From assembly GCF_036588685.1 (NCBI RefSeq), contig NW_026963290.1, positions 5,270,001 through 5,334,000 on the forward strand: a stretch of 64,000 bases of DNA, given 5' to 3'. This DNA is from Mytilus trossulus. Its lineage: Eukaryota. The translations under genes were made by a program, and so were the position numbers. This document shows positions 29,801 to 57,900 of the stretch, one piece after another (position 1 is the first letter of the stretch; each line of letters begins with the position of its first letter). The notes below the pieces were generated by a model, which was given only the letters and a program-made list of their open reading frames with translations, did no database searches and had not been told where the DNA came from.

Positions 29801-30543
29801 ATGCATGACTATTAAAAAAAATACTAAACTAAGTACTACATGTATAATGTCAGACTATAAAGTATACTCATTAATTTGTTTTTACAGTACTTTAAACATC
29901 GATCTCTAAAATACTCAAGGATTTGTATAGTAAGATTTTACTATACAAATCCTTGATGTATTTAAAACTCAACATGCATATGCATGACATTTTTAAAAAA
30001 ACATACTAAACTTAGTACTACATGTATAATGTCAGACTATAAAGTATACTCGTTAATTTGATTTTACCTAGACATATCCCTAATCAACGATGTAATGGAT
30101 GAGATGGCATTGCCACCTAAGTATAATGCTTTCAATCGAGGTAGTTCAGTAAACTGTGGAGGTAACTCTGTAAATGAATTGGCAGAAAAGTTCAGCACCT
30201 CTAGAGATCGTAATTTACTAAAATCCTTTGGTATAGTTTTACATTCTAAGTCGTTGTTCTTGGCTATCAAAGTTCTTAATTGTTTTAAATTAACCACAGC
30301 ATCATCTAGTTTGTGACAGTTGTTGTTGCTAATATCCAAAGTGATCAGGTTAGCAAACACATTTATAGACTTAGGCAACACTTCTATATTGTTATGGTGT
30401 AGGCACAATGCTCTGATTGACTTCGAACGATCAAATAAATATTCTGGTATGGCTGTCAGGTCACCATATGACAAATCCTCAGCTCCATCACTTAAATATT
30501 CATTCTCAGAACAAGAAGTTGTTTCAGACAAATATTCAGCCAT
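26815..30543 (-). CDS. LRRC58: Leucine-rich repeat-containing protein 58, 355 aa, 3 exons
   Basis: Exons 30543-30068, 27689-27286, 27002-26815; GT-AG and in frame (1068 nt). LxxLxLxxN repeats, BC-box-like VPSLLELSAR, C-terminal CVNPECKGVYF...FVDFCGKYRLPLLQYLCSP and terminal KVLLG, all typical of LRRC58. Confidence 0.93.
29353..30060. repeat. Tandem repeat, ~190-bp unit, ~3.7 copies, next to the LRRC58 exon 1 donor
   Basis: Units begin AAGAT(C/T)TTACTATACAAAT near 29353, 29543, 29739 and 29932; copies are highly similar. Confidence 0.9.
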
Positions 30544-30932: not shown

Positions 30933-33900
30933 ATGGGGGATGAGAGTAAACATTCGACAGAAGCTATTGTAGAGACCAGTATAACCAATACAAAGAAAGA
31001 AATCAAACAGAATGTACAAAGCAATAAGCAGGATGAGGAATTAGATTCATTGTTAGACAGTATGAGTCATCAATTAACAGAATACCAATACACAAGATAT
31101 TTTATTGGGATAGAAATAAATTATATCTGTATAAATCAAGATTTTTTTGGGGGCAAGAGAGTAGAAATTGTGTACCCCACATGATTATTACCAATAAAGT
31201 TTTATTTAATGTAGAGTTAACAATACATGGTAATCTCCATTTATAGCTAACATCACTCCAAAACAATAATCAGGTATAATGCTCATTTGATTTTAAATTC
31301 ATGTGTACGATGGTGGTAAAGGGGGTCCCTTCATTACATTTAATGGTAAAACTTCTTTTCAAATGACAGTAATTATTGGTGCATGACATTAAAATGTACA
31401 CTTTCCTTTAGAATATCTAGACAGTAATAAAGAATTGCGCTAAATTTTGAATTAGAATTTAACCAATTCTGTTATCCGGCGTGACGTAGCAGCCGGTAGT
31501 TACAGCATCCGGGCATCACTGTAGGTGACGCTTTTCCCTAGATACTTCAATCACCGCTAATGGTCAGTGGTAATACCCGAGGGTAAGTTAATTGAGATAA
31601 CACTTTACATTTATTAATTAAGGTGTAAACAATAATTAGATGGCATACAATTATTTTGATAAGCTAGACAGTGTGGCACAAGGTCGTTATAGTACCAAAT
31701 TAGTGTTAATTAACAGTGATGAATGTCCATACAAGTTCCCTGCAGGTGTTTGGAAAAATAACCCATCTTGTTGGCCAGATCTCCAGTTTGGAGATGTGTA
31801 TTCATATTTAGGCTTAAATTAAAATATTGTTTGTTTGCAGTTTACCGACCGACCCTTGAAAATCCTCCCGACTGTGAAAATTTTATTGCTTTAAATTTGA
31901 AGAATTTTTTTTTAATACCTCTATTGACGCGATCCGGAACTTTGGGTCCTTTCCGGAATGATTTAAAGTCTGGGTCAATTACGCATTTCAAGTTCGGTTT
32001 TACTTAGCTTCCCGTCAAGCGTTCATGTGACCATTTAAGGTAGAGAAGGACACTGACGACCAAAAAAATCTAGCCAATGAAATTTCTTAAATTTCCCATA
32101 TATTGTTCATTGGGGTGTACCTAACAAAATATCAAAATTTGAGAATAGGTTTCCAGGCTATTTTTAGAAATATTTTTTGAAAAAGTTACCTCCCTTTGCA
32201 GTCCTAAAAATGTCATTATTTAGCCTGTTTAAGCTATAAAGGTTCCTTCCAAAACCGGCATATATAATTTTTTTTTAACTTTTTCTCTGAACATTATGAT
32301 AAATGAATATTTTAAAATATTTTAGACAAAATTTATTTTAAATTTTTTTTTTTTTTTCAAAATGGCTACCCTTTTTTGCAATATGCCTGTAACCGTCTTG
32401 TGTACAATTTTGCCAAAAAAATATTGTAAAAGTAAAAAAAAAAAAAATTGTGTCAATGAATTTTTTTTTTAAACTGGAATATAAAATACTTTGTATCCAT
32501 GCTACAAGTCATAAAAAAATAAAGATATGCTTCCAGGGAAAATAAAAAGTTACGGGGGTAGAATGACACCCTGTCACACACCCTTTTATGCAGATTTCAT
32601 GAAAAATGTCAAAATTTTCATTATTTTTTTTTAAATATCTTAACTAAAGGTGGGATTGTTTCTTCAATGATCATTGGTTTTGCAGCTTCCATGTCTTTGC
32701 AATACTTTTTTATCCTTTCAATTAACCTTCTTTATGCTGAGAGGAGGTTGCATCAGTTTTGAATATTCAGGAAGTTGACAGTTGACCTATGAGCATAAAC
32801 ATCATTTTCATGGTTAATAATCCTTGATGAAAAAAAAAAATCTTTCATACAATAAGTATTCATAACTATTTATCATACCTTGTTTTTTTCACCTCATGTG
32901 AAAAGGATTGTCCTACTAATTAATATATATAATTACAGTGTATTATGTGTTTTTCGTGATGTTTTAATTTTAAATTGTATGATTTTTGATATTCTCATGC
33001 TCTTGTTTATTGGTTTTGTTGAGTGGTCACTGCTTGGAAATACCTAGATCTTTTAATTGACTGTTGATGTTTATTTTACAAATACACCTAAACATATAGA
33101 CTATTTGGTAAGGGCTTTGCTCATTGTTGAAGGCCATACGGTGACTTATAGTTGTAAATTTCTGTGTCATTATGGTCTCTTGTGGAGATATGTCTCATTG
33201 GTAATCATACATCTTTCTTTTTTTATATGAATAGTGTAATGTTTGATCTGAATGATTGCTGTGAAAGTCTTGGAAGTGCAAAAATCAACATACACATAAA
33301 TCACTGTTCATGATTTTAATGATGTAGCAAAAAAGAAAATATATATGTAAAATAAATTTTATTTCACATCATATTTTTTTTGTAATTACCATCCACATTT
33401 ATAAATGTAAACAAAACTCAAGAGCAGACATTTTACAGACAACAATTGATTTTGATCTAGACGGACCATGTCTCAATAATATAAAACAAACAACTGTATT
33501 ATTTATCAAAATATTAATATAACATCAATTTCCAATACATATCCAGAATGAGAATGTGGATGACTCTTGTAAAAGGACTCACTAGAACATTTGTCCAATT
33601 TCATGAAAACTGCATTCTCTGAAAATATATTTGTGAGTGACTTGGTCCAGTTTATTAACCAATAAATTCCTGTAAAAAAGTGTTTAATCCTTAATATTAT
33701 TCTTTAATTTTGGCAAAAAAACAAAAAAAAATCCACACTCGTTATCACCATAATAGGGTAATACATGTAGTATATTTGTGTCATTGAATTGGCCAGGCAC
33801 ATAAATTAATTTGTTGGTTCATGCAAAAATATGTACTCCATGTCACTAAAAGTCTTATTATGATCATCAAAGGAATTTTTTGTGTTTGTATTCAAATAAA

Positions 33901-36900
33901 TAGTTTTAACATTGAGTCAGATTATGTTACATGTACTCTAGCCTCATTGATTACAAATAGAAGTTTGGTTAACGTCCTCTATCGAGAAATAAACAACTTC
34001 ATGAACAACTACTGGAGGTCCTTTCAACCAATTTTATAAAAGTATTCTCTATTATCATGATTATGCAAATCATATAAGAAGTATGATAATATAATATCAA
34101 CATATATATATCCATGTCATTCAGAATGTGGATTAAACTTGCAAAAGTGTTTAGTCTCAAAAATAAATATGGGGCAGATTCAGTTTCCAAGGGACTCACG
34201 TGCACTGAAACGTTTGTCCAATTTCATGAAAACTGCAATCTTTAAAAAAACATATTCCATTAAAACTTCATATAAAACAATTGTTTTGCCCATAGATCAG
34301 ATTGCTACAACAAATCTTTAAAAAAAAATGTGGAAAAAATGGTGGGGTGGGGATGGGGCAAGATGGTAAAGCATTGGAACTGACAATATTGTTACTTTTA
34401 TAAGACCTTATGAGTCCCCCTCATTTCTGATTTATGGCCTAGCCTAATGCTTATTATGTTGGTTTTTAGCCTAATGCTTATTATGTTGGTTTATGTATAT
34501 AAATTAAAGTTATCTCCCCTTTATTAAGAATCAGTTGATAACTTTGATAACTATGGACTTATATTGTTACAATAGCACCTACTTTTGTATAAAAGTTCAT
34601 AATGATCTGATGAAAAATTGGTCAATCAAAATAAAAATCTATATGAGAAATAATCCGTCAGGCTTCAGGAAGTTATCCACCATTATTGACTAAATGGAAA
34701 ATATTTATTCTGACAGGAAAATACTTTACTTGTTGTGAATTATTTTTTTTCACTCTGTCGAGGCAAACTTGATTTATTGTACAGAAAAGGAAACTGTGAC
34801 AGACATACAGACAGAGTAATTATTAAACGATGCTGCAATTTTATAACAAATCCCTAATTCTTATATATATTTTAAGTGTGATTACTCTTTGGTTACTCAA
34901 AATTTAGTAAAAACTTCACTTTAATCATAATCAACTATTATCAAGGGTTGTTTCAAAAGATTAGATTTTTAGATAGGCATAACCAGTTTTTCTATAGAAT
35001 TATAGCATATAAATATGAAATTTATGAGTCTTTAACCACATTTACAGTCTATTCCTCTTTTTCAGAAAAAAACTTCTTGAATACATTTGCTGTTTTCCCT
35101 TTCAAACCATGTTCCTGCATGATGGATTTTACGCCATCGTCATTGTTTCTTTTGTAAGCAAGTTCCAGGTGATGAAGGTTGAGACCTGTGCAGGACAGTT
35201 TCCTTGCAGTGTCTTTAGAAATAATCTTTTTAACAATGACACTAGAAAAACCCTCTACAATTGACAAATAATTAAATGGAAATAAATCCTTTCCAGAACA
35301 TGTCTGTTTCAGCTTCAGATGGAACAGTTTGTATAAACTTCTAACATCCTCCTCAGAATTATGAGCATCATAAACAATCTCCAGAAACTTTTGAACTAAT
35401 GTTTGCTGCTTATAATTTAGAACATCAGCTTTTGGTATTTCACGTTTTGCAATTTTCAAAGTGTCAATGCATCCATAAATTAGGTCATCAAAAGAACTCA
35501 GCAGATTAAACTCGTGCAACAAATTTCTTAGTACAGGAACATCATATGAATGGATGTTATGACCAACAAGCACAGGACGAGATTTTTTCTGTATCATTTC
35601 AATTAGTTGAAGTAAGGCTGTTCTAATACAAACACTTTCAACTGGAACACCATGGCAATACATTTGGTTTCTTTCAAAAGAGAAAGTAATACCGGTAACA
35701 TCACTGGCCTTTGATGAAATAGATTGTCGTGGAGACACATACAGATTTAGCATGTTTGTCCCATCATATGCTGATATTTGTGTAATATCAGAGGTTCTTG
35801 ATAACCCAGTTGTTTCTAAATCAAAAACAATATAATTGTCTATGCCTTCCAAAGAATATTTTGTTGGAATTTTTTCAATGTCTCTTACCGACACATTTTC
35901 TTCAATTTGTGGTTGATATGTTTCTCCTTCTATAACAGCTGCCTTAATTTGTTGAAAGGTTTTCTTATTCTAGAAAAAGACAAAAAGAACATATTTTTTT
36001 TTTGTTTATACCTGGTTGTATTGTTACATGTACTTTGTAAAATAAATGGGTTATAACTCTTAATAACCATATCATTCTTTTCAACTGTCATCATCTTGTT
36101 TTCTATTTTTTGGCAAAATTGCAATTTCTATTGTCTTTGTCAATTTATATTATAGTTTACCCTTTTTACAATTTAACAAAATTCACGTAAGTTTCACCAT
36201 GTCCCTGTGCTTATATATTTTAAAGTTATGGTGTTATCATTATTGAGATAACTTCTCTTATAGAATAGAATGGAATATATTTATTTTCCAAATTAGGGCC
36301 CAGGAGGGCATATGATACAGACAATATTATTATAAACAATAACATATGCAATACACACACAATAAAAGATATATAACAAGTGTTATAAAAATAATAAAAT
36401 AAAATAATATACCACAGAAAATACACTCAACAAAATAGTAGCAATGTATTATTATTCAATGAATACTATGTTGAAATTGACTCAAGTGCATATTTATATA
36501 TGCCACATCATGCTTTCAATTGTACAACAGTTGATATACTCAATTTTAAAGACACACACCACCTATTCTTAGCCCTCTTTCCTATCCACATTGAAATTAT
36601 CACTTCAAAACATTTTGTGGAAGCGAGATCGATATACCTGTATTTATACAGCAGAGGGTACTGCACTGATAAATAAAAATTTTGATGACCTAATAAGGCA
36701 CTTCATATCTGAGAAACAGGCTAAATATGTCTCCAATTTTAGAATTCAATCATATATGTATGTATTATTAACAAGTGAAACTGAGAGCTACTGCTCACTG
36801 ATGATTCCCCTGCTGCAAGTGGATAATATTAGTAGTGTAAATATATGCAAGTGTTCGGGAAACAGGAAGTTGTTGCTGAAAACGCATCACACGGTATAGT

Positions 36901-39900
36901 TGACTTATATAAATCCTGAAACCAAATTTCAGAAATCCTTGTTTTGTAGATCCTGAGAAAAATGTGATGAAAATTTTCAACTTGGCTATCATGTGTAAAA
37001 TCATACAAGTGTTCGGTCAACAGGAAGTTGACAAGTGATCAATCTGAAAACGCATCACAAGGTAAAGCTGACTTAGATAAACCCTGAAACCAAATTTCAG
37101 AAATCCTTGTATTGTAGTTCCTGAGAAAAATGCGACGAAAAATAATCATGGGAACGGACGGACTGACTGACTGACAGATTGACGGAAGGACAGACCGAGG
37201 GTAAACAGTATACCCCCCCCCCCCCTTTTTTAAAGCGGGGGTATACAAATTATAAATAATTTGCAGTGAGGTGAGAATTTTGTCCGTGTTGAGGCTTTAG
37301 TGTAACTTTGGGATGAAGAATCGCAATAAAAGAGCTGTTCCTTCGCTTTGTGTGTCTTTTGTTGTAAATGTACTTGATATCCCATATCCTTTGTTTTTTA
37401 TTTATATGGCTGTCATTAATTTGACTAATTATATGCCATGAAGTTTTACCTTTCTTTTAAATCTGTCACGTTTGAAAAGAACTGAGGAGCTATTCTTCTT
37501 TTGCCAGAGTCTCTTTCTGTCAATCCTCTGTCCAACTCTTACAGAGATTGTGCCTGGTGACAACAATGCTTTCTTGTTAACCTAAAACAAGGTAAACTAG
37601 TGAGAAATGTTTTAGATGACAAAAAACATAACCATCCCCTTAAATTCTATATTTAACCTTTAGATCGGGTCGCATGAAGGTCAACCACACACTGCTTTAT
37701 ATTCAAACAATTAAAAACCAAATTAACATCATTTACCAGGGTATGTGTGGACAAACATTGCTAAGAAAAAGTTGATTAAAAAAATACAATAACTTCCAAT
37801 TTGAAATTGATCACCTTTGTAAGGTCATTCACCTTTGCATCAAATTTGGCAAAAATCACTGTATCAGTTTTTAAATTATTGTTGAGAAACCTAAATTGAC
37901 AGGTCACAACCATTATACTATGTTTATGTTACATGGGGTAAGATGAAAGAGGAAATACACATTATTTATAATATATAAGCTGTAACACAATACCTTGTTA
38001 ACCCAGGTATAACCTTCATTCTTCTGAAGAACTGCAGCTGAAACTCTTGCTTTTAATGAGCTGGTTCCACCATATGATCTACAAAAAGAAATTTCACAAA
38101 TTTCAGTCATTTTAAAGTTAATATTGTAAAGCAGCTGTCAGAAATTTAAACTAGCTAAAACAAGTGAAACTGCGAGCTACTACTCACTGATGATACCACC
38201 ACTGCAAGTGGATAATTTTAATAGTGTAAAAATATGCAAGTGTTCGGTAAACAGGAAGTTGTTAAGTGATGAATCTGGAAACGCCTCACACAGTATAGCA
38301 GACTTGTATAAAACCTATAACTAAATTTCAGAAATCCTTGTATTGTAGCTCCTAAGTAAAATGTAACGAAAAATATTCATGGGTCTGACAGACAGACGGA
38401 CAGACAAACTGATGGACAGACAGAGTTCAAACAGTATACCCCCTTTTTTCAAAGCGGAGCGGGGGTATAATAATTATTATAAAACTTTTCAGAGGGAATA
38501 ACTCTTCAAATATTTTTGAAATGTATACTTTTGTTTCATAAGATCTCATATCAGTTTTTGAATTTTTAAATTATATCTTTTGAGGTTTTGGAGTTTGCCA
38601 CCTGCCATTCCCTGCCCCCTAATATCACAATTTATTACATTGGTTGCAATGAATTACATTGATTTCCCAGTTGAATAAAAACCGATAATTTCACATGTGA
38701 AATAATCGTGGTTATTTCACTCTCTGACGTCATACAACAATAGGCGTTGTCAAGACGTCGATAACGTCGGAGCAAAACAAATTGTGAATGCGTAGGAAAA
38801 TAATATAGTTCCTTACATTTTCTACATTAATTTCATAAAAAAAAAAGCCATTAGCCAATGTAATAAAAAGTATAACTAATCGCCGTATTTGAATAATCAA
38901 AAATAAGACAACTTGTGACCGAACGCCGCTATGGATTAAACTCGTGCTGCGCACTCGTTTAATCCATGCGTCGTTCGGTCACGCGTTGTCTTATTTTAGA
39001 TATTCAAATACGGCGATTAGTTATACTATAATTAATTTAATAAAATGAAACTTAAGTTTATATTTAACTGTTTGCACTGTTGGTTATTTTTTGTTTATAC
39101 AATGCTATCAAAATGAAGGATTGTTTTACATTTGATCATAGTTTAAAAATAGAATTCTGCTAATTTAGATAAAAAATTCTTAAATAGTCAATTTTCATTT
39201 GAAGGACAAACAGCAATCATCTCCCTTCAAAAATGAAAGACCTCTATTCTTTATTGCTATGTTTGTTTGGCTGGATGTTACTGAAAGGTTATAATCAATT
39301 TTTTTTAGTTACTGACCTATTTTTTGGAGCCTTGCTTGCCACTATATTGTTGAAATTTTCATTGCTCTGTGTTGAGCCTAAATCTACAAGTTGGCTTGAT
39401 CTTTTCTTGTAATTTTCTGTCATTGTCTCTAATTGCTTACGCAGGTTTTCATTTGACAATGGTTCACCTTTTGGGAGATGTTTAAATCTGAAATGATAAA
39501 AAAGAAAATAGTTGAAATGTCATACATTTATATGTATGTTGATTTATGGCAATGTTTCAAATAGATCTAAACTGTACAATTTTATTTACCACTTAGTTAC
39601 ATAGTTGAATATTCCTTAAGCTGCTGAACTGTGTGTTATTCATTATGAATTGTAATGCATTTTTTTATAACAAGGATTTTGATTGGACAACCTCACCTTT
39701 TCCTCAGGGGGTTAAACTGATGAAGAACCTGTTGGATGAAGTTTTTTGCACTGTGCAGCAGATAACATTTCAAAATTATAAAATATATAAATTTCTTTAA
39801 AAATAAAGAGTAAATGTGCATAACAAAAACTGTGTTGTATTTGAATATTTGGTCTTCAATTTTTACATGTATGTTACCGGAAAACTAATTTTGTGATAAT

Positions 39901-42900
39901 AATATCACGGATGGAATAGTCCATTAGCAAGTATACTAGTATATTCAAATACAACACAATTGTTGTTTAATTCCAGGAAAAATTGTTCTTCAAGAAATCT
40001 TTACAAGTCATTTTATTGTCTGTAAATTATTTAGGAGGTCCTAGTTAATGATGCTATACCATAAGTTATCTAAGTTCATATCTGTAGTAAGGATATTTTA
40101 ACACCCTGAGGCAGAGCCGAAGGGTGTACAGGGTACTAAAGGGTGGGGGGGGGGGGGGCATAGTATTTTCTGGAACAGCCCTAACCTGAAAACAACGTTT
40201 TTTTTTTCATTATTTAAAAAAAAATTATTGGAATTTTATTTGCTTTATAGAATGAGAGGATGTACTTGTTTTATTGTATATTGTTTTTTTCTGCAGTTTT
40301 ATGACAAAATTGGTTGTCAGCATTTGAAATAGCAATATGAGAACAGCTCCCAAACTTAAATTTTGTTCTGACATAATATCACTCATAATAAAAACATTTA
40401 AAAGACTTTCTTTTATATGTATAACATCCTTTAAATTTAGTTAAATTTAAACCTGTAAGTTTCTGGTTGCTTGGAATATGTGCACCAATCCCCAGAACAG
40501 CCTGAATGGTCTCCAAATAGGTGAGGAACTATACTGTCTAATCTTTCACAAAGATCATTCTCCTTTGACTGGTTTGAACTTATGGCATACATATAACATC
40601 TAAGTATGTATGGAATGACTCCTTTCCCCTTCAGCTCTTTGTACTTATTTGCTGCTGCATACAGTTGTTTCGACAGATTTTTCTTGACATGGTTTTTATC
40701 GTCTCTTTTTTTTATGTTTGCAAACTTTTGCTTTAGCCTGGATGATGTTGTAGAGTCATTGTCTGCGTGAATTATGCCGACTGTGCACCCTCTGTTGTCC
40801 ATCCTAGTAACCATTGATAAAGCCATGTCAGGCTCCATGGCTTTACTTGATCCTGTAACAAAAAAGGACATTGTAAATACTACAATTACTTACATTTATA
40901 AGAACTATTTAAGATGACTGAAACATATTTCATCTCCCTTTTTTTACAAGTAACTTAAAAAATTATATAGTTGTTTGACATTATGACTGTGGCAGATCCA
41001 GGGTGTTTGAACCCCACTTATTTTTTTAGACGATGAATGCATTTGAATGGGGACATATAGTTGGAACCCCTCCCCCCCTTTGCCCTGGGTTGGGAATCCC
41101 CCCCCCCAACCCCTTTTTAAAATGGCTGAATCTGCCCCTGTTGGGATATGGTCAACATACATACTTGGTTTGTGAGCGCATAGCCATAAGGCGGTGTTAT
41201 GACTATGTAACCATAAACTAAATATCATTGTCCTTTTTTCAATGAAAAAAAAAAGTTGGGTTTTTTGTAACTGTTATAATTAAAACTAGACTCATTCAGA
41301 TGAAACTTTGTGGGCCTGCTGTGAATTATGAGTGGAAAATATTTTGTATCTTTACCATTATGGACATTAATTGTCAACTAAAACCAATGTATGAAATCAT
41401 AATGATTCTCCAGATATATAGGGGACAAAAGTTGTTAGAGGCGGGCATACTATAGGACAATTGCCATTTTGAGTGTTCGCTATAAAAAATTGTCTGTAGG
41501 TGCTAGTCATGGTCACACCTTGTGATATTCTTATTGTTGTTGGAATGATGAATTTGCATAAACTAAAACAGATCCTGGATAAGGAGACCTTCTCACAGAA
41601 ATCTGGATTAACCTAAATCATCGTTATTGGATTTTGCTTGAAAAAGACATTTAAAAAAAAATGTTGTTTGTGTACCATGCCAATTACTGTTGCATTGATG
41701 ATTTGGAACTGTTTCCTTTCTTCCCAAATGATGCTGGCATATACTGCATAGTTTACTTCTTACATCATAGTCTAGAACTTTACCAGTCTTTACACCAACT
41801 AGACTGGAATGTCCTGCAAAAATACAAAGTCCATGTCATTCTTATGCACATTAGAAAAGGTTAAAAACAGTTTCTGATAATTATATTCAAAAATGAAAAT
41901 ACATGAATAATGTCTGAAATTTTACTCCCACGTCATATGCATTGTCCCTTTACGCCAACATTTTACACCTCGCTAAAATATTGGTCATAAGGGCCAAGTT
42001 CCAGCCAACCCATGGTAAAATCTTGATATATTGAACTAATTGAAGCCCCATGAATTATTTCTTTAAAAAATATATGACACAGATGTAAATATGAGTTTTG
42101 CTTAGCTTTTTTGGCTGTTGAGCCGTAAGTTGCAAATAAACCTAAAAATTCCAATATAGCGGGTACATCTGACATCTGTTTCTGTTAGAATATCAAAATC
42201 TAACTTATTACCAAAGTTCATTGAAATAAAATAGTTGCTGAGAATTGGACCTTAAATTAGGCTGTTAGTTTTCTGGTTTGAATTGTTTTACACTGTCATT
42301 TCTTGACCATTTGTGGACTATGTTGTATGGGATTTGCTCATTGTTGAAGGCTGCACAGTGACCTATAGTTGTTAATTTCTTTGTGATTTGTCTCTTGTGG
42401 AGAGTTGTCTCATTTGCAATCATACCACATCTTCTTTTTAATACTTAACAGAAACAGATTACTGTAGGATAGAATGGCCTATATTTTAGTGAACCCAAAT
42501 GTACAGTTCTACTAGTTATTCCTATGGAAAATCTTTTGAACAAGTATATTGGTCTACCATGTAAAGTAGTTTGAATATGACCCTAAACAAAAAAACTTAA
42601 CCATGATCGTGAGGAAAGGAAACATATATACAGAGGGACAGTGGTAAACCTATATGTACCAATTATTTTCATAGTTGAAACCTAAATAGTTATTTTGGAC
42701 AAGTTTATTGATGTGTAAAGGTGACAGTATATAAATAACACATAGCTGAGAGGGTGATAGAGCAGATTGGTACCCCGAGAAAACATTGTCTGACAATGCT
42801 TTTTCAAGGGGTACCAATCTGCTCTATCACCCTCTCAGCTATGTGTTATTTAATTTATTATACTGAACGTCCTACCGTTTTTGTCTTTTAAAAGGATTTT

Positions 42901-45900: not shown

Positions 45901-48900
45901 CATATTTGAAGGTGAATTGCAATCATATTCCTACAAACTTCACATGGTTTACATAGTTTTGTAAAAAATGAAGGGGTGCTGAAAATTATTGTTTACCTCA
46001 TTTCACCAACTATATCCTTCAGATGGAGTGGGGTGTTGCATCTGTTGCAGAAGAGTTGTTCCGCTAGAACTTCCAACTCAACAACCCTCCTGCCTTCATT
46101 CCATGAGATGTTTTTACTCTGTCCGATATCAGTTGAAACCGTAACATTCGAGGCAATGTTTTCAACTAATACCGGTGTCTGTTCTTTTGTCGGTTCCGAT
46201 GGCATTTCTCCCCTCGAACCGTATTCATGGTCTCCCCATTGAATCAAATTACCACTCTCATTTAAAGAGTCCATCCTTGTGGATTTTTTAAATCTGTCTT
46301 TCCTAATAAACCGACCGCGAACACGAAGGCGGTCGCGGTCGTCTGCCATTTTGTTGTTTATCTTGTCTACGGATTGCGTAAAAAAAGAATCGGAACCGAT
46401 TTTAATTACGCAAAATGCACGTGCTATAATAGGTCATGTGATACCCGTCCGTCTCTACCTTAATGATAAAGCACATGGAAACTGTTTACAGGTATCCATG
46501 AAGTCACGGAGGAGTACTTTACGCTGTCGTCTCGTGTCAATTTTAAGACAAATAACAAAGAAACAAGTTTATTAGTAAACTGTTTATACAGATTCAGGCA
46601 CATGTAATGATGTGTGATGATATCATTGACGATGATGCAGCGGATATTTATAACTGACACGATAACCATTCTGCCTCAAACAAATCGGGTTCAGAATCTG
46701 TGGAGCCTGACTTTATTGAACCAATTTCAGTGGTTTAATAATTCGACAGCAGCTTGAAGTATGACATATTTTCTACAAATTGTTGTGAAGACGACAAAGA
46801 TGAAACCACTCCTCCGTGACTAAAATCTTCATGGATATCTGTAAACACGCCTGTACGGAGGAAGGGCTCATTTCAATGTTAATGGATATAGATCATGCCA
46901 AATCAATAAGAAGCCACCCTAACTACACAAAGATGTAGAGAAAATGAATGGTTAGCTTGAGAAATAAATATACTCTCTCTATATCTCTATCTTCGATTGC
47001 AATGAGTATGCTCCTTTAGGATAAGGGGGGCTGCCCCACTCATTGCAATTATTCTCTTTCTCACAATATTAAATATACCCAAACTGTGTGGCCTGTGTGA
47101 ATTCAATTAAAACATGTCCTTAGGAGCTATGCTGCCAATTTTTGTTATGCATTAAAAACATTCAGTACAGACCATTTTATACTTTTAATGGGGTGCTTAG
47201 CATTGATTTCACCCCAAACTTTAGATTTCTTTGGTTTTCATTAAAGCCTGGCAAACATATAACCTTATCACATATAATTAAATATTGTTAGAAATATGAA
47301 AACAGTCGGATGTTTTTTTTAAATTGAGGAAGATTCAATGGTTATTTTTTTTTATTAAAAATACACTCTTTAATAATTGTCTTATAAATCTATAATATAT
47401 ACATTTTTCTAATGAAAATACTCTACTCATGAAAACATTCTAGTCAAGAAGCATACATGTCTGAATATATTTCATTAAAACAGTTCTAGTCATAATGACA
47501 TTCCTTGTTTATAAGTGTTCCAGTATTTAATAATTATGCCATATTTTATGTCATAAATTGGATAATGACACTATGTTTAAAGTTTCAGTTTTGGTTAAAA
47601 AGTTTTTTTATCTGAAAATGCCTGTTCATTTGATGTTGGTTTTCAGCATGTCCAGTGTTCTTTATTTTAAAATGTTTTTTTTTCTTCGCAAGAAACTTGG
47701 TTTAGTGTAACTGCTTGATTAAACTGTATTTTGGCTGATAAAATAAAATATTTTTCCTACCTACCGACCCTTCAGTCTGAAGGTACAGTCGGAAAACTGC
47801 AAACAAACATATTTTTAAGGTTGGCCTTAATTGACTCGCCAGGTATTTAGAATTAAAAATTATTAAGCTGAGCACACCTATATATAACTTTAATTATTTT
47901 TTCCGGTTTTGAAGAATAAGGGTGTGCCGATTTATGCAGTGAAATAATAGTATGGAACATATATATGTCTCTGTGTATTAAAAGTAAGCAGAAAAATAAT
48001 AAACACATCCTTGAAATAACTAACAAAATATAAAAAAATATATATTCACGGCGATATTATTTAGAACTAAACACAGATTGATACATATGTAATATAGATT
48101 TATTGTGTAGCAAAGTTAATTTTATAATTCTGTTCTTTTAAGTTTGATTTAAAAAACAAAAATTAAATGTAAAGGACGCGGACCATGATAGAAGTTGTTA
48201 TAAATGAAGATGAGATGACACATCTTTGGGAATAAACTTTGCACAGTGGGTGATTTCCTCCCAGGTCAGGTGTGAAAGGATAGATTTTTATATTCGTTTA
48301 GTGTCCATGTAAACTTTAATTAATACACGAAGTTATAATTATGATATGTGTCAAGTTTTTAAAATGACATGAAGCTGAAGATATAGATTAAAATAAAAAG
48401 TGAATAACTTTTAAGAATGTTGCAGAATATTACTTTAATTTATTAGGAATAATACTAGGTTACGTATTAAATGTTTTAAACATGTGTTTTAAAATATTTG
48501 TCAGTTATACTGAAAATTAAATAATGTACAAAAAAATGTACAAAGCTCCTTGTATGCTTAAGGTACTATGGAACAGAATAAATTCTTTTAGCCTTCGCCT
48601 TTTTACAAAAATCTGTTATTTTTTTTTCTTCTAGTAATTTAAATTGTTTTTGCTTATACCGGTATCTTGACATATATGTGTACCATATTTAGAGTGAACT
48701 TTTTAAAAAGGTTAATATTGGAACCTATTAAATTTAAATTGAATATAGGACAGTAAATACACCCAGCCGCAAGGACTTATTCTTATGTTAGTCAATATAT
48801 GATTTTCAGGCATTTTTACCCGAGCAAGTATGAAATCCTATAAGACAACTATTTTCAGTCAGGATGGGTTCAGACAGTTTACAGCTATAAGCCTGCCACC

Positions 48901-51900
48901 AGTGCATACACTATACTGAAAGCAGATGTTAGGCCTTCACAAAGACTGAACGAGGAACCTCATCACCCATGGGTTGCCCTCTCTGGAGATGGTTCAGTAG
49001 CCGTGGCTCACTGCAATTGCATGGCAGGGTAGGTTTTAAAATCGTATTGAAATCATTTATATTTATTATATGCATTCAGGTTACTTTGAAGGTTGTTCTC
49101 TTTTTTTTTTGATTTGCTTACGACTGTTAATGTAAAGACAGGAAAAAAGTAATGGAAAAAAGGTCACAATATTTTTTTATGTATGAAACTTGTCATAATA
49201 GTCTGTACACATATATCTTTAGATAGCAAAACAAAAATCCTATTTTTTTTTAGGCTTGCAGAATCATGTTCCCATATTGCAGCCCTTCTCTTCAAAGTAG
49301 AAGCCGCTGTGAGACTGGGATATACCACTAAACTTTGCACTGAGCTACCATGCAAGTGGAATGCTGATTTCGTTAAAAAGGTACAGCCTGCGCCCGTAAA
49401 AGACATCCAATTCTATAAAACCAGCTGTATAAACAAAGCAAAGAAGGTAAAAGTTCGACATTTGTCATCAACCCAACAAGAACAACAGACTCTTCTTCAA
49501 ACTTTGCATGCTTGTAACAGCAAACCTTTGGTTTTAAGTACATTTGACAACTTCTCTGACAAATTTCACTGGCAAAAAACTGTTTCCTCAGATCCGATTG
49601 TACCACAATGTCTTAGATCTCTGTACAAGACAGAGTATGCAGACTTCACAAAAATAGATTTAAGCAGGAAATGCTCCGAAATTAATGATAGTTACAGCAT
49701 GAATAAAGAGACAATCATGTATATCTACGATGTTACTCAAAAACAGAGCTCATCTTTAACATGGCATGAACAACGCATTGGTCGAATAACATCTTCAGTA
49801 GTGTACAGTGTTTTACATACAGATTTCAACAATCCAGCGCCATCACTACTTAAAACTTTGTGTAACCCTAGTTCAAAATCACTTCATCATGTACCTGCAA
49901 TTCATTGGGGTAAAGAAAATGAAAAAGTTGCGCTGCATCAGTACAGTGCAACCATGAAGACACAACATCAACATTTTAATATGAGTTCTGCAGGCTTCCT
50001 AATTTCTAAAGAAACCCCTTTTATTGGTGCTAGTGCTGACTCTGTAGCCAGCTGTTCCTGTCACGGAAATAGAGTTATAGAGGTCAAATGTCCGTTCAGT
50101 CACAAGGAATCGACATTACAGGAGTATGTAAAAGACCCTTCATCCTGCATTGTGGCTAATGGCAGAGAGGTGAAGACTACACACAAATATTACTATCAAA
50201 TCCAGCTTCATATGTACGTGCATGATGTAAATTTATGTGACTTGGTAATTTATACATCAAAGGTAACAGCGATATTTTATATTTTACGCAATGACATCTT
50301 CATTAAAGATATGATAACAAAACTGAAAGATTTTCACATTCGTCATGTGATGACAGAATTATTGACGAGACAATTGGAAAACAAGATTAAACAAGTACCT
50401 TTGAGAAATGATAAATTGTATTGCTACTGCCGATCAAAGGATGATGGAAAGGAGAATATGATTGGTTGTGACAACCCACAATGTAAAACTCAGTGGTATC
50501 ATCTTAAATGTTTAAAAATGAAAAGAATACCAAAAGGACAATGGTTATGTAAAGACTGTAAAAACATTCCCGTTACTAGCTCTTAATAAATACTTTTGCA
50601 TGTGGACCTGTCACCATCAGAAACGTATATAATAGTGTTCAACTTTTGTAGTTATTTATTGTTACAATTCTGTTTTTGGAGACCATTACAGCAAATTTCC
50701 TAATGCATGTAAAGGAAAACTTTGTTGGCTTGTTTGCTTTGTTTGTATAATTGTTGACACAAAAGCATAGTTAAACTGTATAAATAATATTTGAATTTAA
50801 TTGGGTGTTATCCTAATGATTGTACAATATGAAAACAAAGCAAGCAAGTTAACTTAAGTCTTGCTCTACATGCTGTAGGAAATGAGCTGTAAATGTTGAA
50901 CTCAACAACAGTCAGATATTGATCATAAGTAGATATAGGAAGATGTGGTGTGAGTGCCAATGAGACAACTCTCCATCCAAATAACAATTTAAAAATTAAA
51001 CCATTATAGGTTAAAGAACGGCCTTCAACACGGAGCCTTGGCTCACACCGAACAACAAGCTATAAAGGGCCCCAAAATTACTAGTGTAAAACCATTCAAA
51101 CGGGAAAACCAACGGTCTAATTGCATGCATACATGTATATGTAACCTAGAACTACATATATTTTTTATTTACTATGTATATACAGTCAATATTTGAAAAT
51201 AATAAACATTTATCATTCAGCCACTCTAAAAAGGATGTTCTAAATTAGAGGTATTGTTAATCACTTTCCTCATTGTAGACAATTCCTTCCCCCATGTTGG
51301 TTAATGATCCGCAAATGCGGACGAGTTTGTCTATTCGAGCTTGCTTCTTGGTGGATGCTAAAAGGAAAATCCACTTCACATCACCAGATTTAGCAGTGAA
51401 AAGGGTGAAATTTTTCCTTTTAGCTACGTTTTCATAACGCTCTATTTTTTTCTGTTGAACTGTCTTTGTATTGGTTACAGCAAAGGAGAACACGGAAGGC
51501 ACATAGTCAGGGTGGTCGTGATCTTCATTTGGTTTACCTGAAATATTATATTTACTCAATTCAGTTAATGGAAAAAAATTGATTAGAGGTTAGATAGTCT
51601 AGATATATTTTTAAATACATGTACTATACAAATAGTTCAAATCGAGAGGTGTATTTATTTGAATTTGTTTTGATTTTAAACAGCGTATTTTAATGACCAA
51701 TAAATTCAAGGTAACATTTAAAATTCGGGTTTCACTTGTCTTAATGCAAACACAATACTTATTTATGTTAATGTGGTCAGAATCACCTTTCTGTTAATTA
51801 GTTTCAATTCAAGATAAACAGTTCGTATGTTATCAGACTGATCAACTTGTTAGCACCTTATAAAAACAGCTTGATTCTAAATTTTATCTTTGCCAGATGA

Positions 51901-54900
51901 CCACATCTACCTGTTATCTTTGATGTTTGTAATTTTAATATCGCAATTAATTTCAACAGGAATACGATCGTGGCTAATCAAACAAGATATACAATCGCAC
52001 ATGGCTTGGGATTCATTAAAATAATTTCTAATATCCATTTGACTTCAAAATGTTTTATTTTACATCAATTATAAAGGTATTGCAAACGGACTTAAAATAA
52101 GTTAAATTAAATGAAAAATATTCAAAAACAGGATTTTAAAAACTTGTCTTTAGGAATTAAAAAATAACAAGACGGTAAGTGCTGAAAAAAAATATTTGAA
52201 GGTGTGTGTTTGTGAGTTGAAATAAAACAGTTAAGATGGTGTATCTGTATGTTTTAAACAGAGTAATTAATTAATTTATAATCATTTTAAACATGAAGTG
52301 AAATACAAATGAATTACCTGTGATGAAATGCTCGCTACATATTACTGAGTGTTTTGTTGGAACCCACGGTGTACCGTCTGGTTTGTCTCTTTTAAGTGCA
52401 GCTAACCACTTAATTTGTCTGTCGGCATTTCTAGGAAATCTAAAGAATGATAATCTTTTCAGCATTAAGTTGTGATTTTTACAGCCAACTGCACAACATG
52501 ACTTGGGCATGTTTCAATTAAAATAACAATATAAGACACAGGTGCATTCACGACAAATTCTTTATTAAAAATGAGCATCTGCCCTATTATCTATACATCA
52601 AAGCTTCACCTCCTTGACATCGGAAATCGGCGTAACTAGGAAAGGGAGATTACTCGTTTTGAAAATGCCCGTATGTTCGGATAACAGAATTTGACAATTA
52701 CTGTAAGAAAAGTTGTAACTACATCTAAAGATGCCATTATTTTTATCAACATACAAGTGTATGCTACTCTTCCCTAGAAAAAAAATTGAAATATACATAT
52801 TTCAAAGATTCTACAACCGCATTTTTGTGTCGTTTCTCGCGTTACTTTTTGCTTCCGAAGAGCATAACGCTGACTGATTTATAGATAATCATCACCGGCA
52901 AATTCGTAACTTTTGCTTTCAAATAACAAAGAACATCGACCAATAAGAATAGTCAGAAGAAAATGCCGAGAACTATAAGCATTTATGTAGCAGATGTAAG
53001 AACAGTGGCGTGACTTTTGTGTCCGATTTCGTAACGCAAATTTTAGATGATGTAATCTGCTTTGTTGTACAGTAATAGAATTCTTAAAAACAATATGCAA
53101 ATATGAACTCTCGCGAGATGTTTAAACAGGTAAATCAGAGATGATTTACATTCTTGTTTTGATCTTCGTAATAATTAAGTAAGAAAATGACGTTATCGTT
53201 ATGCGTTACATTTCACACGAAACAGAAGTCCAGTTATTTATTAAAATTGTTTTTGTCCTTAAGTTCTAATCATTTCCGGTCATACGTGAAACATGTGACT
53301 AACATGTGATCACGCCCTTACAGCCGCACATACGATATACTAGTTCCAAACATTGTTTTTGTTTCCAACGGGATGTTAGCAAACATAATCTGTAGACTTG
53401 TTTCGACTTGTTTTAAAAAGGAAAATACACTTTTCAAAGAGATTGCGCCGGGGGTCAATTATTTTTCCTATGTGCATAATGTTACATACGATCTTGTGTG
53501 AAAATAAATGCCCAATTACTTGACAAAATCGATTTCAGATTTGACCGACGTTTAAACACACTACGTTTCCCAATAACGATGTAAAGGGTCCTTGGAAAAT
53601 GCAATCGAAATTACGTCTCTTATCATGGTGCCGCTGTTCATTGGATTGATTTTGCTTCAGCAGTAAATATTACTGGATAATTTAGGTGAATAAAGATAAT
53701 TAAATGAAAAATGCATGTTAATATACCGTTACACTTGGAATGTACAAAGTTGGTAACTTTGTCACAATTTTTAATTAATTTTTTTTATTCATGTTCTGCT
53801 AACACTTTTCAGAAACGCAATAAACTTGTCAAAGGAAAAGTAAACTTTTACCAGGCATGATTTGAAAGGAAGTACTTTATTGATTTTAGCCCACTAAAGT
53901 AGGTTAAAATGTGGAAACCATGTAGATGGTGTACAGGTCACAAATATCACATGGTGCCTATTTTAAAGATTTTAATTCCAAGTTAAAAGTTTTTTTCTTT
54001 ACTGGATTTAAAGAATTTTACATTGCCAATGATTTGGAATAAATTTTATATAACTGGAATTTCAAAACCAAATATAAATATATTTTTTTGGCCAAAACAT
54101 CAAGATACAACGATTATGGTATCCTGTATCAATGAAGAAAATATGGAAAATTCTGAATAAATTGTACTAATTGTTTTCAAAACAAGCACATATTTAGGAG
54201 TTTTATAATACTGTTACATTTAAGATGGATTTTAAGAAAAAGTATACTGTTCAGATTATTTTAAGCAGATTTTGCATTAAAATAAAACTAAAAAAATGCT
54301 TTCGGTTTCTTATGGTTTCCTGTCACATTTAAAAAAAACTTTAATATAACATCATGAACATTGAAAATAGATTTTAAATATTAACATGAAGCAAGTAACA
54401 CTAGTTATGGTGTTTATTTATGCTTTTTGAATTATATTGTGCAAAATAAAGAAAATAAAGATTGGTTTCCTGTTTGGTTACCTGTCACGTAAACGGTGAA
54501 TCAAAATGTATTAATTTTTTCTCGAAAAACTCAGTTGTTCCATTCATACTATTCTAACACCAACACAACCCACAAAATAAAAGTTAAAATTTTAGAACTT
54601 ATAAAAAAGGATACAAAAAGAAACCAAAGGCCGAATACCAAATTATGGTCCGTATACATTGCATGACATTGTTATATTTCAAATTGTTTTGTAAAAGATA
54701 ACATTATATAGTTATTAATTTTTCTTTTGAAGAATTCTTTTGTCATGTTTATTCATAATTAGGATTTTGCATTGTTAACATACATGTCAAAAGAATTTTC
54801 AATCTTCACATTTGAAGTTGAATTCAATTAGTACAACAACAAAAATGCAGTAATGCTAATTTTCTTCAACATACATGTACATATATTAATATAAGAATAA

Positions 54901-57900
54901 TTTATGTTATAGCCTACATTTTGAGTTTTTGTTATCTATATGTTTGCATTCTATTAAAATACATTTTTTGTGTAATTATTAATTTTATTTATAAATAGTG
55001 AATCCTATTCATTTTGAAATCAATTTAAACTTTTTTTAGGTGCTTTGAAAGATTTTGATGAAGTAAAGCCAAAAACAGCAACAAAAGAGGACCAGGGAAG
55101 TGCCAAGAAAAATGATTCCGTAAGCTAAAAAACAGCTTTTTGTTATGTTATATAATTTGTATATGTACCTGTAAGGTAAATGTCCATTCTATACAAATTT
55201 CAGAGCACGGTTAACAACATTTCCGTGGGCATGTTTTCTTTAGACTTGCTGACATCTCTATCATGTCTATGCTTCAAATTTATGTCTGATCATTGTATGC
55301 CCACAAGGCCGTAACTACCCTTGAGGCAAGTGAGGCAATTGCCTCACTAAAATTTCGACACTGATTATTTTTTTTATACATATATATAAATATAATAGTC
55401 ATTTGTTGTTCTGTCTCAACCTTTATGTCTATAACTTGTCATTATTCCTTTTAAACTATTCTTCCTGGATATAACTCAGCATCTCAACGGGTGATGTTTC
55501 TCGATTACATTAACCTAGTAACGATAATCATCATGGATCTTCAGTTAAAAACAGGCTCTTGCAGAAAAAGGAAAAGCGACACTTAAGGTAAATAAGGAAT
55601 AATTCTAGTAAACCAGTTTATTTGTGAATAGAGTCTGAGTATTGCATATAACTTCATTAGGATAAGTAGACTGACAAATCAAGTACTGGTCTCTGGAAGG
55701 GGGGAGTACTGTCTGTGTATTCATTTCAAGAACTTTAATCTTTCTCTTTACAGATAAATAAAATATAAATAATATGAAACATGAATGCATGGATTAGCTT
55801 TTATCCATGATGATGTTTCTTTAACCTTAAAAATTGAAAGAATATTCCATATTCCAATTTGATATTATTGAGAAATGGTAGAACCTTTAACACAGAATTT
55901 TGTCTTTACTTATTCGGGACTACGGAATTTCGTTTTTTTTATATACGGGGTTTCGGAATTGGACACACCCAACCCCTAACCCCTAAATTTATAGATTCTG
56001 GAACTAAAACATGTAAAATACCACCAACTATTTCCAGAAATTATAATTTGAAATTACGGAACTACTATATATGTAAACGTCAATTATAAACTCCATTCCA
56101 ATTCCCCTGTACCCATATCATATATACTTACTCTATAGATAGAATCATATATAGATATAGGAAGATGTGGTGTGAGTGCCAATGAGACAACTCTCCATCC
56201 AAATAACAATTTAAAAATTAAACCATTATAGGTTAAAGTACGGCCTTCAACACGGAGCCTTGGCTCACACCGAACAACAAGCTATAAAGGGCCCCAAAAT
56301 TACTAGTGTAAAACCATTCAAACGGGAAAACCAACGGTCTAATCTATACATGTATATCTTATCTCATTCGTTCCCTAGTTTGTCTACTCTTTGTCAGCAT
56401 AAAAGCGAGTTTAACATTTTGAGACCAAATCATGATTCTGAAACGATTTGACTGAACCGGCCATAGAAAAAATTGGCAAACTCTACTGAATCGATGTTAG
56501 TTCTATGTTTTAGCAGCAGACTCAAATCAGTGATATTTGGATGATTATCTTACATATAAATTTAAATAAAGTAATGAAAGTTGTTACAAATTTGGTGTTA
56601 GTAATTAAAAGTCTTAAAATATGAAAAATTTATATAAAAAGTGTCCAAATTCAAAACATTATCAAACTCTCTAAAAATGCCTAGAATGCAGGATTTTGCA
56701 CCATTCATTTCATACCTTCTCAAAAAAAATTAGTTTGCCTCACTAAAAAACGATGCCTAGTTACGGCCTTGGCCCACCATCATTGTCTGATGATTAAATG
56801 CCAGCCATCAATATCTGTACAATGTATGCCCACCATCAATATCTGTACATTGTATGCAGACCATCTATATCTGTTCATTTTATGCCCACCATCAATATCT
56901 GTACATTTTATGTCCACCATCAATATTTGTATATATTGAATGCCCACCTTCAATATCTGTACATTGTCAAAGTCAATGATTTTGAAGGTGTTCATTTACA
57001 ATACTTGCTTGTATAATTTCATAAACAATGCAGGTAAAGTGATTATGATGATAAAAAATACAGCCATTTATTTTTAGAAAAAAAAGTAAAAAGTTATGCA
57101 GTCAATACATTGATGTGTTTATATTTAAAAAAAAATTAATCATGTGTTTCAGGCATCACAGAAATCAGAAGCCTCAGGGGATCCATTGTCAGACATGTTT
57201 GCTGATGAGTTCTCAGATGATATGGCTAAACAGTTTGAAGAGGCCATGAAAAGTATGGTTGGTGAGGATCCTGAATTAGTTTCACAGATAGAAAAACTAG
57301 CAGCTGCTGCTGGCAGTGCAGGTATTGGTTTAATTGTTGAAATGATTTATAAGTCTATTACGTAGACAGCAAAAGGGGGAGGGAGGGAATTTGTCATTTT
57401 GATAATAAAAAGACTGTTACATATATATGTATGAAGACAATCTAACTAGGAGAAATTTGGACATAAAAAATTAGCTGTTCAAAGATGGTCTATTTCAATG
57501 TAAGGGGTGAAAATCATGATGATAAATAAGGGGCTAGTTAGTAGTAGTGGTACATTTTTTATTACATAGGATTTTTTTCAGAGTTTATAAAAACAAGGCA
57601 TCGTTGAATCTCAATTGACATTTATGAGTCCATAGTGTAAATTTAATATTAACTAAATACTCATTTATTTTATCAGGAAGAGGTATGAATGCATTATTTA
57701 TAATTTCAATTTTTTTGGATAGGCGATTCACAAGAAGCACAGCAAGAGTTTGCTAAAAACTTAGCACAAACCATGTCTAGTCTTGATGAGAATTCAGAAG
57801 AATTACAGGTATGTGGTAAAAACTCTGAATAATTATAGACTATCTATGGTTCTAACAATGAGAGGGAGTTATAATTAAAAAGAAAGACAAGTTCCTCAGG

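What the first reader, a model, noticed from the sequence alone, without database searches (positions are those of the whole stretch)
31060..55039. Three-level nest of DNA transposons inflates PEX19 intron 1 to 24 kb
Seen: an ISL2EU-like element (31465-52691) contains a GGC/TTA element (31811-47826), which contains the Kolobok-type element (32039-46459), which contains MITEs. Each layer has its own TIRs, and the two inner layers have exact TSDs. Subtracting the nest leaves ~2.75 kb of intron. All three left ends lie within ~1 kb of the PEX19 exon 1 donor. Inference: repeated insertion into open chromatin next to the LRRC58/PEX19 promoter, and a likely presence/absence polymorphism in an essential peroxisome gene.
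Basis: partly seen in the sequence, partly recalled or inferred. Interest (0 to 1): 0.7.

Follow-up and report, generated by a model that had tools for sequence, protein, structure and literature searches.

The report
Stacked transposons inflate a PEX19 intron
In this genome, likely a mussel's, the first intron of the peroxisome gene PEX19 is 24 kb long because known kinds of jumping DNA sit inside one another there; the four other sequenced samples checked lack the stack, and its youngest layer keeps an unbroken predicted transposase gene and is likely still mobile.

Summary
The nest is real. An ISL2EU-type element (true ends 31468-52688, AT duplication) holds a 1.6-kb non-autonomous element (TTA), which holds a 14.4-kb KolobokD-type element (TTAA). 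Sister copies elsewhere in the genome show the empty middle and inner sites, so the order is proven and mis-assembly is unlikely. Contigs from 4 of 4 public runs laid on the left junction lack the insertion. RNA contigs from 3 of 3 studies join exon 1 to exon 2.

Corrections: the 2.75-kb remainder is mostly a fourth, older 2-kb transposon that lacks its left end. About 0.6 kb was likely deleted beside the ISL2EU copy. Most 'MITEs' are cargo shared with sister copies.

The open-chromatin explanation is untested: the clustered sites also lie in the ISL2EU element's own first exon, and 3 of 14 sister copies carry multi-kb nested insertions too.

The best residue is the KolobokD copy: an open 857-aa transposase-exonuclease model and sisters at 0 and 0.15% divergence, so likely recently active. 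The scan noted a broken KolobokD elsewhere in this genome before. Ordinary nesting of known families, well documented.

The parts
27230..30540 (-). LRRC58-like gene, first coding exons; head to head with PEX19, 393 bp between start codons
   Evidence: LRR Pfam hits; PDB LRRC58 chain 9t7v_B at E 2.5e-52 is the second hit and has the longest stretch, reaching past the LRRs
30933..31059 (+). PEX19 exon 1 (coding part), phase-1 donor
   Evidence: its last 30 bases precede exon 2 in RNA contigs of 3 of 3 runs
31060..55039 (+). PEX19 intron 1, 23,980 bp; only about 0.8 kb (31060-31465, 54656-55039) lies outside the four large elements
31305..31413 (.). old dispersed repeat fragment, about 75-81% identical to many places
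31468..52688 (.). ISL2EU-type DNA transposon, outer layer; AT duplication at 31466-31467 and 52689-52690; intact sisters are 6.0-6.15 kb; both genes of this copy are broken
31640..50586 (+). ISL2EU second gene (YqaJ exonuclease + PHD finger): exon 1 31640-31810 and 47830-47842, split by the middle element; exon 2 from 48810 with a 13-bp deletion after 48845; exon 3 49254-50586, open
   Evidence: the deletion is absent from all 10 sister loci checked (5 distinct copies)
31811..47826 (.). middle layer: 1.59-kb non-autonomous TIR element (longest open frame 71 aa); TTA duplication at 31808-31810 and 47827-47829; Harbinger- or Zator-like, superfamily not settled
   Evidence: exact 3-bp duplication in 18 of 19 full-length sisters
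32039..46459 (-). inner layer: 14.4-kb KolobokD-type transposon; TTAA duplication at 32035-32038 and 46460-46463; GG...CC ends
35049..46349 (-). predicted 9-exon KolobokD gene, 857 aa: DDD/E transposase fused to a DEDDh exonuclease; antisense to PEX19; open in this copy
38635..39031 (.). 397-bp high-copy repeat with a 159-bp palindrome and no terminal inverted repeats; in an intron of the KolobokD gene; shared only with the C6 copy among 8 sisters fetched
50931..51125 (.). 195-bp common short repeat inserted in the outer element; absent from the 4 full-length sisters
51257..52513 (-). remnant of the ISL2EU transposase gene: THAP exon kept; about 1.1 kb with the HTH and DDE core deleted; 57-bp inversion at 51357-51413
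   Evidence: its right junction is also in run X2, which lacks the nest
55040..62939 (+). PEX19 exons 2-8, open frame ending in a CaaX-type motif (motif name recalled)

Best explanation
PEX19 intron 1 holds a stack of three DNA transposons of described kinds beside a fourth, and the stack likely grew by ordinary serial cut-and-paste insertion on one haplotype that other sampled animals do not carry. Shown: the order outer, middle, inner; the absence of the stack from 4 of 4 runs; the exon 1-exon 2 splice in other samples. Inferred history: (1) A 2-kb non-autonomous element entered an intron of about 1.4 kb. (2) A 6.1-kb ISL2EU copy inserted at an AT 409 bp past the donor. (3) About 0.6 kb next to its right end was deleted, with the left end of the 2-kb element. 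(4) The ISL2EU copy lost its transposase core and took a 1.6-kb passenger in the first exon of its second gene. (5) A coding-intact KolobokD copy inserted last, at a TTAA in that passenger. Each later hit fell in already dispensable DNA, so it likely cost little beyond intron length. PEX19 is likely still spliced from the carrier allele, perhaps less efficiently.
For: Empty sites: 6 of 6 outer sisters and 24 of 28 middle loci. Duplications typical of each family: AT in 5 of 7 copies, 3 bp in 18 of 19, TTAA at 22 of 22 ends found in 26 loci. Domains: THAP, HTH_Tnp_4, DDE_Tnp_4 and YqaJ for the outer family; PF20700 and RNase_T for the inner. Absence elsewhere: contigs of X1 and X2 cross 31468 and go on for 601 letters, X3 for 40 (two haplotypes), X6 for 47. 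The depth of bin 31438-31478 equals the sum of flank contigs and repeat contigs in all four runs, leaving no room for a junction contig (my arithmetic on its tables). X1 has 0 substitutions in 769 bp of left flank; X2 has 3 there and 0 differences in 670 bp on the right. Inner layer youngest: 0.064% private substitutions against 0.50% for the outer. Nesting is common here: multi-kb insertions in 1 of 6 ISL2EU and 2 of 8 KolobokD sisters.
Against: No long reads or RNA from the carrier were seen, and no intermediate allele (outer only, or outer plus middle) was found. The middle copy looks older than the element it sits in (1.67% private substitutions, nearest sister 2.7%, against 0.50% and 0.7%). 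That needs either re-mobilisation of an aged copy or an unsampled donor, since only 19 of at least 40 copies were compared. The two secondary sites cluster more than uniform chance predicts (0.4-0.6%, post hoc).
Confidence: 0.85

Rival explanations
1. The shared LRRC58/PEX19 promoter keeps the first kilobase of the intron open in the germ line and drew in all three elements.
For: Sites lie 409, 752 and 980 bp from the donor; the chance that both secondary hits fall this near the left end is 0.4-0.6% under uniform insertion, with no local excess of target motifs (39 of 548 TNA, 11 of 101 TTAA). Both genes are found in RNA contigs or holder runs.
Against: The statistic is post hoc. The same stretch is the 5' end of the ISL2EU element's own gene and CpG-rich. 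A sister copy on C9 was hit about 0.68 kb from the same end. The 195-bp and 397-bp insertions lie far from the promoter. Nesting is common in sister copies. No chromatin data were seen.
Confidence: 0.3
2. Part of the nest was built elsewhere, and the outer element carried it into PEX19 as one unit, moved in trans by an intact sister's transposase.
For: The outer ends are intact and two sisters (L023, L026) show unbroken main frames for both genes. The outer copy has 0.50% private substitutions and several deletions, while its flanks are nearly identical to empty haplotypes.
Against: No second composite was found: 6 of 6 outer sisters are empty. Recombination near the site would also give near-identical flanks (inference). 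The inner element is so young that arrival in place is simpler.
Confidence: 0.15
3. The 24-kb intron is an assembly artefact made by collapsing repeats.
For: The locus is on an 8.1-Mb contig outside the large ones. None of 4 runs shows the junction. A C6 copy is identical over 11,351 bp and begins at a run of 100 N, so the assembler may have had trouble with this repeat.
Against: Each inner layer sits in an exact empty site with the right duplication, and both flanks belong to one element. The outer copy has private deletions and an inversion. The C6 copy has a different right flank.
Confidence: 0.04
4. The nest makes a weak PEX19 allele: the exon 1 donor would splice to the sense-strand phase-1 acceptor of the ISL2EU second gene at 48810, run into the 13-bp deletion and be degraded.
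For: The acceptor is on the PEX19 strand, in the same phase as the donor and 6.2 kb ahead of the true exon 2. The KolobokD gene is antisense. The allele was in 0 of 4 runs.
Against: No RNA from a carrier; four runs say little about frequency; most young insertions are rare without being harmful (general knowledge).
Confidence: 0.15

Closest known systems
KolobokD lineage of Kolobok transposons (Kojima and Bao 2022, PMC9587614; passages read; supplements searched)
   Same: TTAA duplication, RR...YY ends, DDD/E transposase with DxxH and both zinc fingers, DEDDh exonuclease, mollusc host.
   Different: The passages give no family from this genome, no length and no statement on fusion. Here the two domains are one predicted 9-exon frame in a 14-kb element with near-identical copies. 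Tree placement was not tested.
ISL2EU group of PHIS transposons (Han et al. 2015, PMC4482050; passages read)
   Same: AT duplication; one gene with THAP, HTH and DDE; a second gene with YqaJ.
   Different: The ends begin TC, not the usual GG. The second gene adds a PHD finger. 2 of 7 copies lack a clean AT duplication. This copy is dead in both genes.
Non-autonomous PIF/Harbinger elements (TWA duplication, PMC4482050) or Zator elements (recalled, not from a call)
   Same: 3-bp duplication, TTA or TAA in 13 of 19 copies; GGC ends; no coding capacity.
   Different: No autonomous partner was identified; TCA, TGA and TGG targets also occur.
Nested insertion in DNA transposons, e.g. MULEs of maize and rice (PMC3903597; abstract and outline only); hemizygosity and presence/absence variation in bivalves (seen only as a sentence and references in PMC10294476)
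   Same: Over a third of coding MULEs carry nested insertions, many carry two or more; structural variation is reported as widespread in molluscs.
   Different: Here all large layers are DNA transposons in an animal intron, with empty sites on hand for every layer.

Membership tests
KolobokD | TTAA target site duplication | tested here: met
   window copy; TTAA at 22 of 22 ends found in 26 loci
KolobokD | 5'-RR and YY-3' ends | tested here: met
   GG...CC
KolobokD | DDD/E transposase with C/DxxH and a CCHC finger after the first D | tested here: met
   PF20700 on 4 exons, E 1e-30 to 5e-6, the weakest just under the curated cut-off; motifs at about D226, D319, D340-H343, E465 and the finger assigned by eye in the model
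KolobokD | DEDDh (DnaQ) exonuclease | tested here: met
   RNase_T E 2e-7, Exu_RNase_H_like E 1e-5 (below cut-off), PML_C E 1e-10; motif residues present
KolobokD | placement in the KolobokD clade of the transposase tree | not tested
   no reference sequences under that name in 4 supplementary files
ISL2EU | AT target site duplication | tested here: met
   5 of 7 copies, this one included; the empty allele matches to 31468, as expected
ISL2EU | transposase with THAP, HTH and DDE | tested here: met
   sister L023: DDE_Tnp_4 E 1e-48, HTH_Tnp_4, THAP; the window copy keeps THAP only
ISL2EU | second gene with a YqaJ exonuclease | tested here: met
   YqaJ E 2e-19 in the window copy
ISL2EU | ends usually begin GG (a tendency in PMC4482050, not a rule) | tested here: not met
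   ends begin TC in all 7 copies; filed as ISL2EU-type on target site and genes
PIF/Harbinger or Zator (middle element) | 3-bp TWA-type duplication | tested here: met
   18 of 19 exact 3-bp duplications, 13 of them TTA or TAA
PIF/Harbinger or Zator (middle element) | transposase of the family, or an autonomous partner with the same ends | tested here: inconclusive
   longest open frame 71 aa; partner not sought
MITE (397-bp repeat) | terminal inverted repeats and a fixed duplication | tested here: not met
   ends are not complementary; right flanks vary among the 5 loci printed of 7; rolling-circle kin is a recalled lead only

The most novel reading that the evidence does not exclude
The inner element is a live, autonomous KolobokD: a 14-kb transposon whose transposase is fused to a 3'-5' exonuclease with a PML-like tail, still jumping in this population. 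It would be a ready substrate for the first test of what that exonuclease does. Its landing turned a short intron of the only PEX19 copy into a segregating 24-kb allele with a same-phase exon trap, a natural experiment on promoter-proximal stacking and splicing.
Probability: 0.35. Interest if true: 0.55.

Novelty: new member of a known kind. Interest (0 to 1): 0.3.

Why it matters
The nest itself is a clean worked example of a known process. It adds three things. First, a 21-kb presence/absence variant in a conserved single-copy gene, with the order of events readable. Second, a caution on dating: the middle layer looks three times older by divergence than the element it sits in. Third, a coding-intact KolobokD family with near-identical copies. 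KolobokD occurs in 1 paper of the held library, and the passages read there only propose a role for the exonuclease.

Tried and rejected
A metagenome scan for the left flank gave one 24-base match in a bacterial-looking contig with no further likeness; rejected as chance. No second copy of the exon 1 region or of the PEX19 exon searched, so no alternative haplotype in the assembly (only top candidates are scored). Earlier-findings look-up by place: nothing. The idea that the 601 extra letters of X1/X2 are the fourth element was rejected: 464 of its first 600 31-mers are shared with sisters, so a contig would break there. The idea that they are the intron right of it was rejected for X2: a different, 679-base contig covers that part. 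X6 had no cover over exon 1, which proves nothing. Only 7 of the 20 holder runs were laid. Runs with small shares were not used to name a habitat. A Pfam scan of two small KolobokD exons and two frames of the L028 insertion found nothing, and the Atlas could not read the 652-aa frame. Paper searches: Kolobok, ISL2EU (32), Zator (35), nested DNA transposon + intron + Mytilus (45; 8 papers, none on such a locus by title), KolobokD (46), nested insertion and chromatin (55); listings only, except the four papers named. Subscription papers and Repbase were not searchable, so the families may already be catalogued. No folding or complex job was run.
Full report
Setting. The window is G000:C15:5270001-5334000, in a 1.30-Gb assembly of 541 contigs; C15 is 8.1 Mb. 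The host is likely a mussel. An LRRC58-like gene and PEX19 start 393 bp apart, head to head. PEX19 has eight exons in an open 303-aa frame, 2 of 4 exons scanned hit Pfam Pex19, and one locus was found. Intron 1 is 31060-55039, 23,980 bp; the other six introns are 401-2,140 bp.

Outer layer. Six other places match the left end at 99-100% from 31466 and six match the right end. The ends are 31468 and 52688, with AT on both sides in 5 of 7 copies. Four uninterrupted sisters are 6,044-6,148 bp. Sister L023 encodes THAP, HTH_Tnp_4 and DDE_Tnp_4 on one strand and YqaJ plus PHD on the other, the ISL2EU layout in PMC4482050 (passages). The ends begin TC rather than the usual GG. The window copy is dead. 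About 1.1 kb of transposase is deleted, with a 57-bp inversion at 51357-51413. The second gene is split in exon 1 by the middle element and has a private 13-bp deletion in exon 2. A 195-bp repeat sits at 50931-51125.

Middle layer. All 6 outer sisters read across the site without it. It is 1,591 bp without the inner layer and duplication, and has no frame over 71 aa. Searches returned 40 scored matches from 425 and 132 candidates. 18 of 19 distinct full-length sisters have an exact 3-bp duplication: TTA 9, TAA 4, TCA 2, TGA 2, TGG 1. Its superfamily is open.

Inner layer. 24 of 28 middle loci show the empty TTAA site. Of 8 sisters fetched, 6 have both ends, each with TTAA. A 9-exon model on the minus strand gives 857 aa with Kolobok transposase motifs and a DEDDh domain. 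The model was picked from 8 open combinations of my own candidate splice sites, so exact borders of exons 3 and 8 are uncertain, and no RNA was laid on it. It is open in the window and in 6 of 8 sisters; one is cut at a gap and one is internally deleted. Synonymous to non-synonymous changes are 11:5, 11:5, 14:12, 14:20 and 1:2, an excess of synonymous change over my recalled neutral expectation of about 1:3. This fits KolobokD (PMC9587614, passages). The C5 sister differs at 21 of 13,976 aligned bases. A C6 copy has no difference in 11,351 bp but starts at a run of 100 N, so its identity may partly reflect shared reads. Small repeats inside the element are mostly shared with sisters. Only the 397-bp repeat is limited to the window and C6 copies; it is high-copy (1,401 candidates) and lacks terminal inverted repeats.

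Right of the outer element lies a fourth element, 52696-54655: 40 scored matches at 92-97% from 635 candidates, about 2.0 kb when whole. This copy lacks about 60 bp of its left end. Only about 0.8 kb of the intron is outside the four elements.

Other samples. 20 of 24 listed runs hold part of the promoter stretch; I laid 7. On the left junction (X1, X2, X3, X6; three studies) every run has a contig that follows the window to 31468 and goes on in other sequence: 601 letters in X1 and X2, 40 in both X3 haplotypes, 47 in X6. The depth in bin 31438-31478 (14.2, 78.3, 18.9, 7.32) equals flank plus repeat contigs, so no filled junction is seen in 4 of 4. Contigs drop rare variants and a filter removes some, so this shows the empty allele and does not prove absence of the filled one. 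X1 has 0 substitutions and 17 gap letters in 769 bp; X2 has 3 substitutions. On the right, X2 matches 54626-55295 with no difference and begins with 30 letters of the fourth element, one short of the tool's bridging rule. So the fourth element likely predates the nest. The 601 letters are not that element and not the right flank; the simplest reading is at least 0.57 kb of unique intron, lost from the window allele with the element's left end. The letters were not displayed. RNA contigs of X8, X19 and X15 (three studies; X8 is RNA by guess) put the last 30 bases of exon 1 before 55040 and exon 3 after exon 2. Exon 1 is therefore the real first coding exon, but these animals' introns are unknown.

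Ages. Private substitutions: outer 24 of 4,784 (0.50%; sisters 0.27-0.50%), middle 21 of 1,255 (1.67%; nearest 2.7%), fourth 18 of 1,839 (0.98%), inner 8 of 12,487 (0.064%) (5, 19, 12 and 4 sisters). The middle layer must have entered after the outer one existed yet looks older. This runs against a simple clock and suggests an aged copy moved by cut-and-paste or an unsampled donor.

Why here. The sites lie 409, 752 and 980 bp from the donor; uniform chance for the two secondary hits is 0.4-0.6%, post hoc. Against a host-specific cause: the stretch is the ISL2EU element's own 5' gene end; sister L028 was hit about 0.68 kb from the same end; two other secondary insertions are distant; and 3 of 14 sisters carry multi-kb insertions. 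[quoted passage not shown] I commit to serial insertion with tolerance in dispensable DNA (0.85), with promoter openness as a possible contributor (0.3).

Effect on PEX19. Untested. The ISL2EU exon 2 acceptor at 48810 is on the sense strand and in phase with the exon 1 donor, and leads into a frameshift; the KolobokD gene is antisense. Either could lower output.

Verdict. Observation confirmed and extended; known families and a known process; new member of a known kind. The scan had noted a broken KolobokD copy elsewhere in this genome; its PML-like tail agrees with my PML_C hit. Interest 0.3, carried by the shown presence/absence and the intact, young KolobokD.

Noticed in passing
L028:886-8850 (G000:C9, inside an ISL2EU sister): An 8-kb insertion bounded by 2,985-bp direct repeats that are 99.93% identical, each with a 652-aa open frame, around a 2-kb core with a 240-aa frame; no Pfam hit for either. 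It replaces about 3.2 kb of the ISL2EU copy. Composite-like or LTR-like; unexplained.
   Followed up: partly
G000:C2:5257800-5276200 and C9:63926100-63945750 (L103-L106): KolobokD sisters with nested insertions: 4.4 kb with 790- and 339-aa frames (DIRS-like by recall, not tested) and 6.3 kb with inverted ends.
   Followed up: partly
G000:C6, L097-L098: KolobokD copy identical to the window's over 11,351 bp, starting at a run of 100 N; true twin or shared reads.
   Followed up: partly
window 30935: X1, X2 and X3 have three more bases just after the PEX19 start codon, an in-frame difference of one residue; the window allele also lacks 12 bp after 31296 relative to X1, X2 and X6.
   Followed up: no
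   Followed up: partly
L008-L011 (G000:C15, C11): Four near-identical loci with an 81-bp piece about 90% like the ISL2EU left end, 570 bp from a copy of the fourth element; they look like segmental duplicates.
   Followed up: no
window 29353-29963: Tandem array of about 190-bp units in LRRC58 intron 1.
   Followed up: no
window 55301-56771, 56144-56357, 60980-61640: Further short repeats in PEX19 introns 2 and 7, seen by eye and by self-comparison.
   Followed up: no
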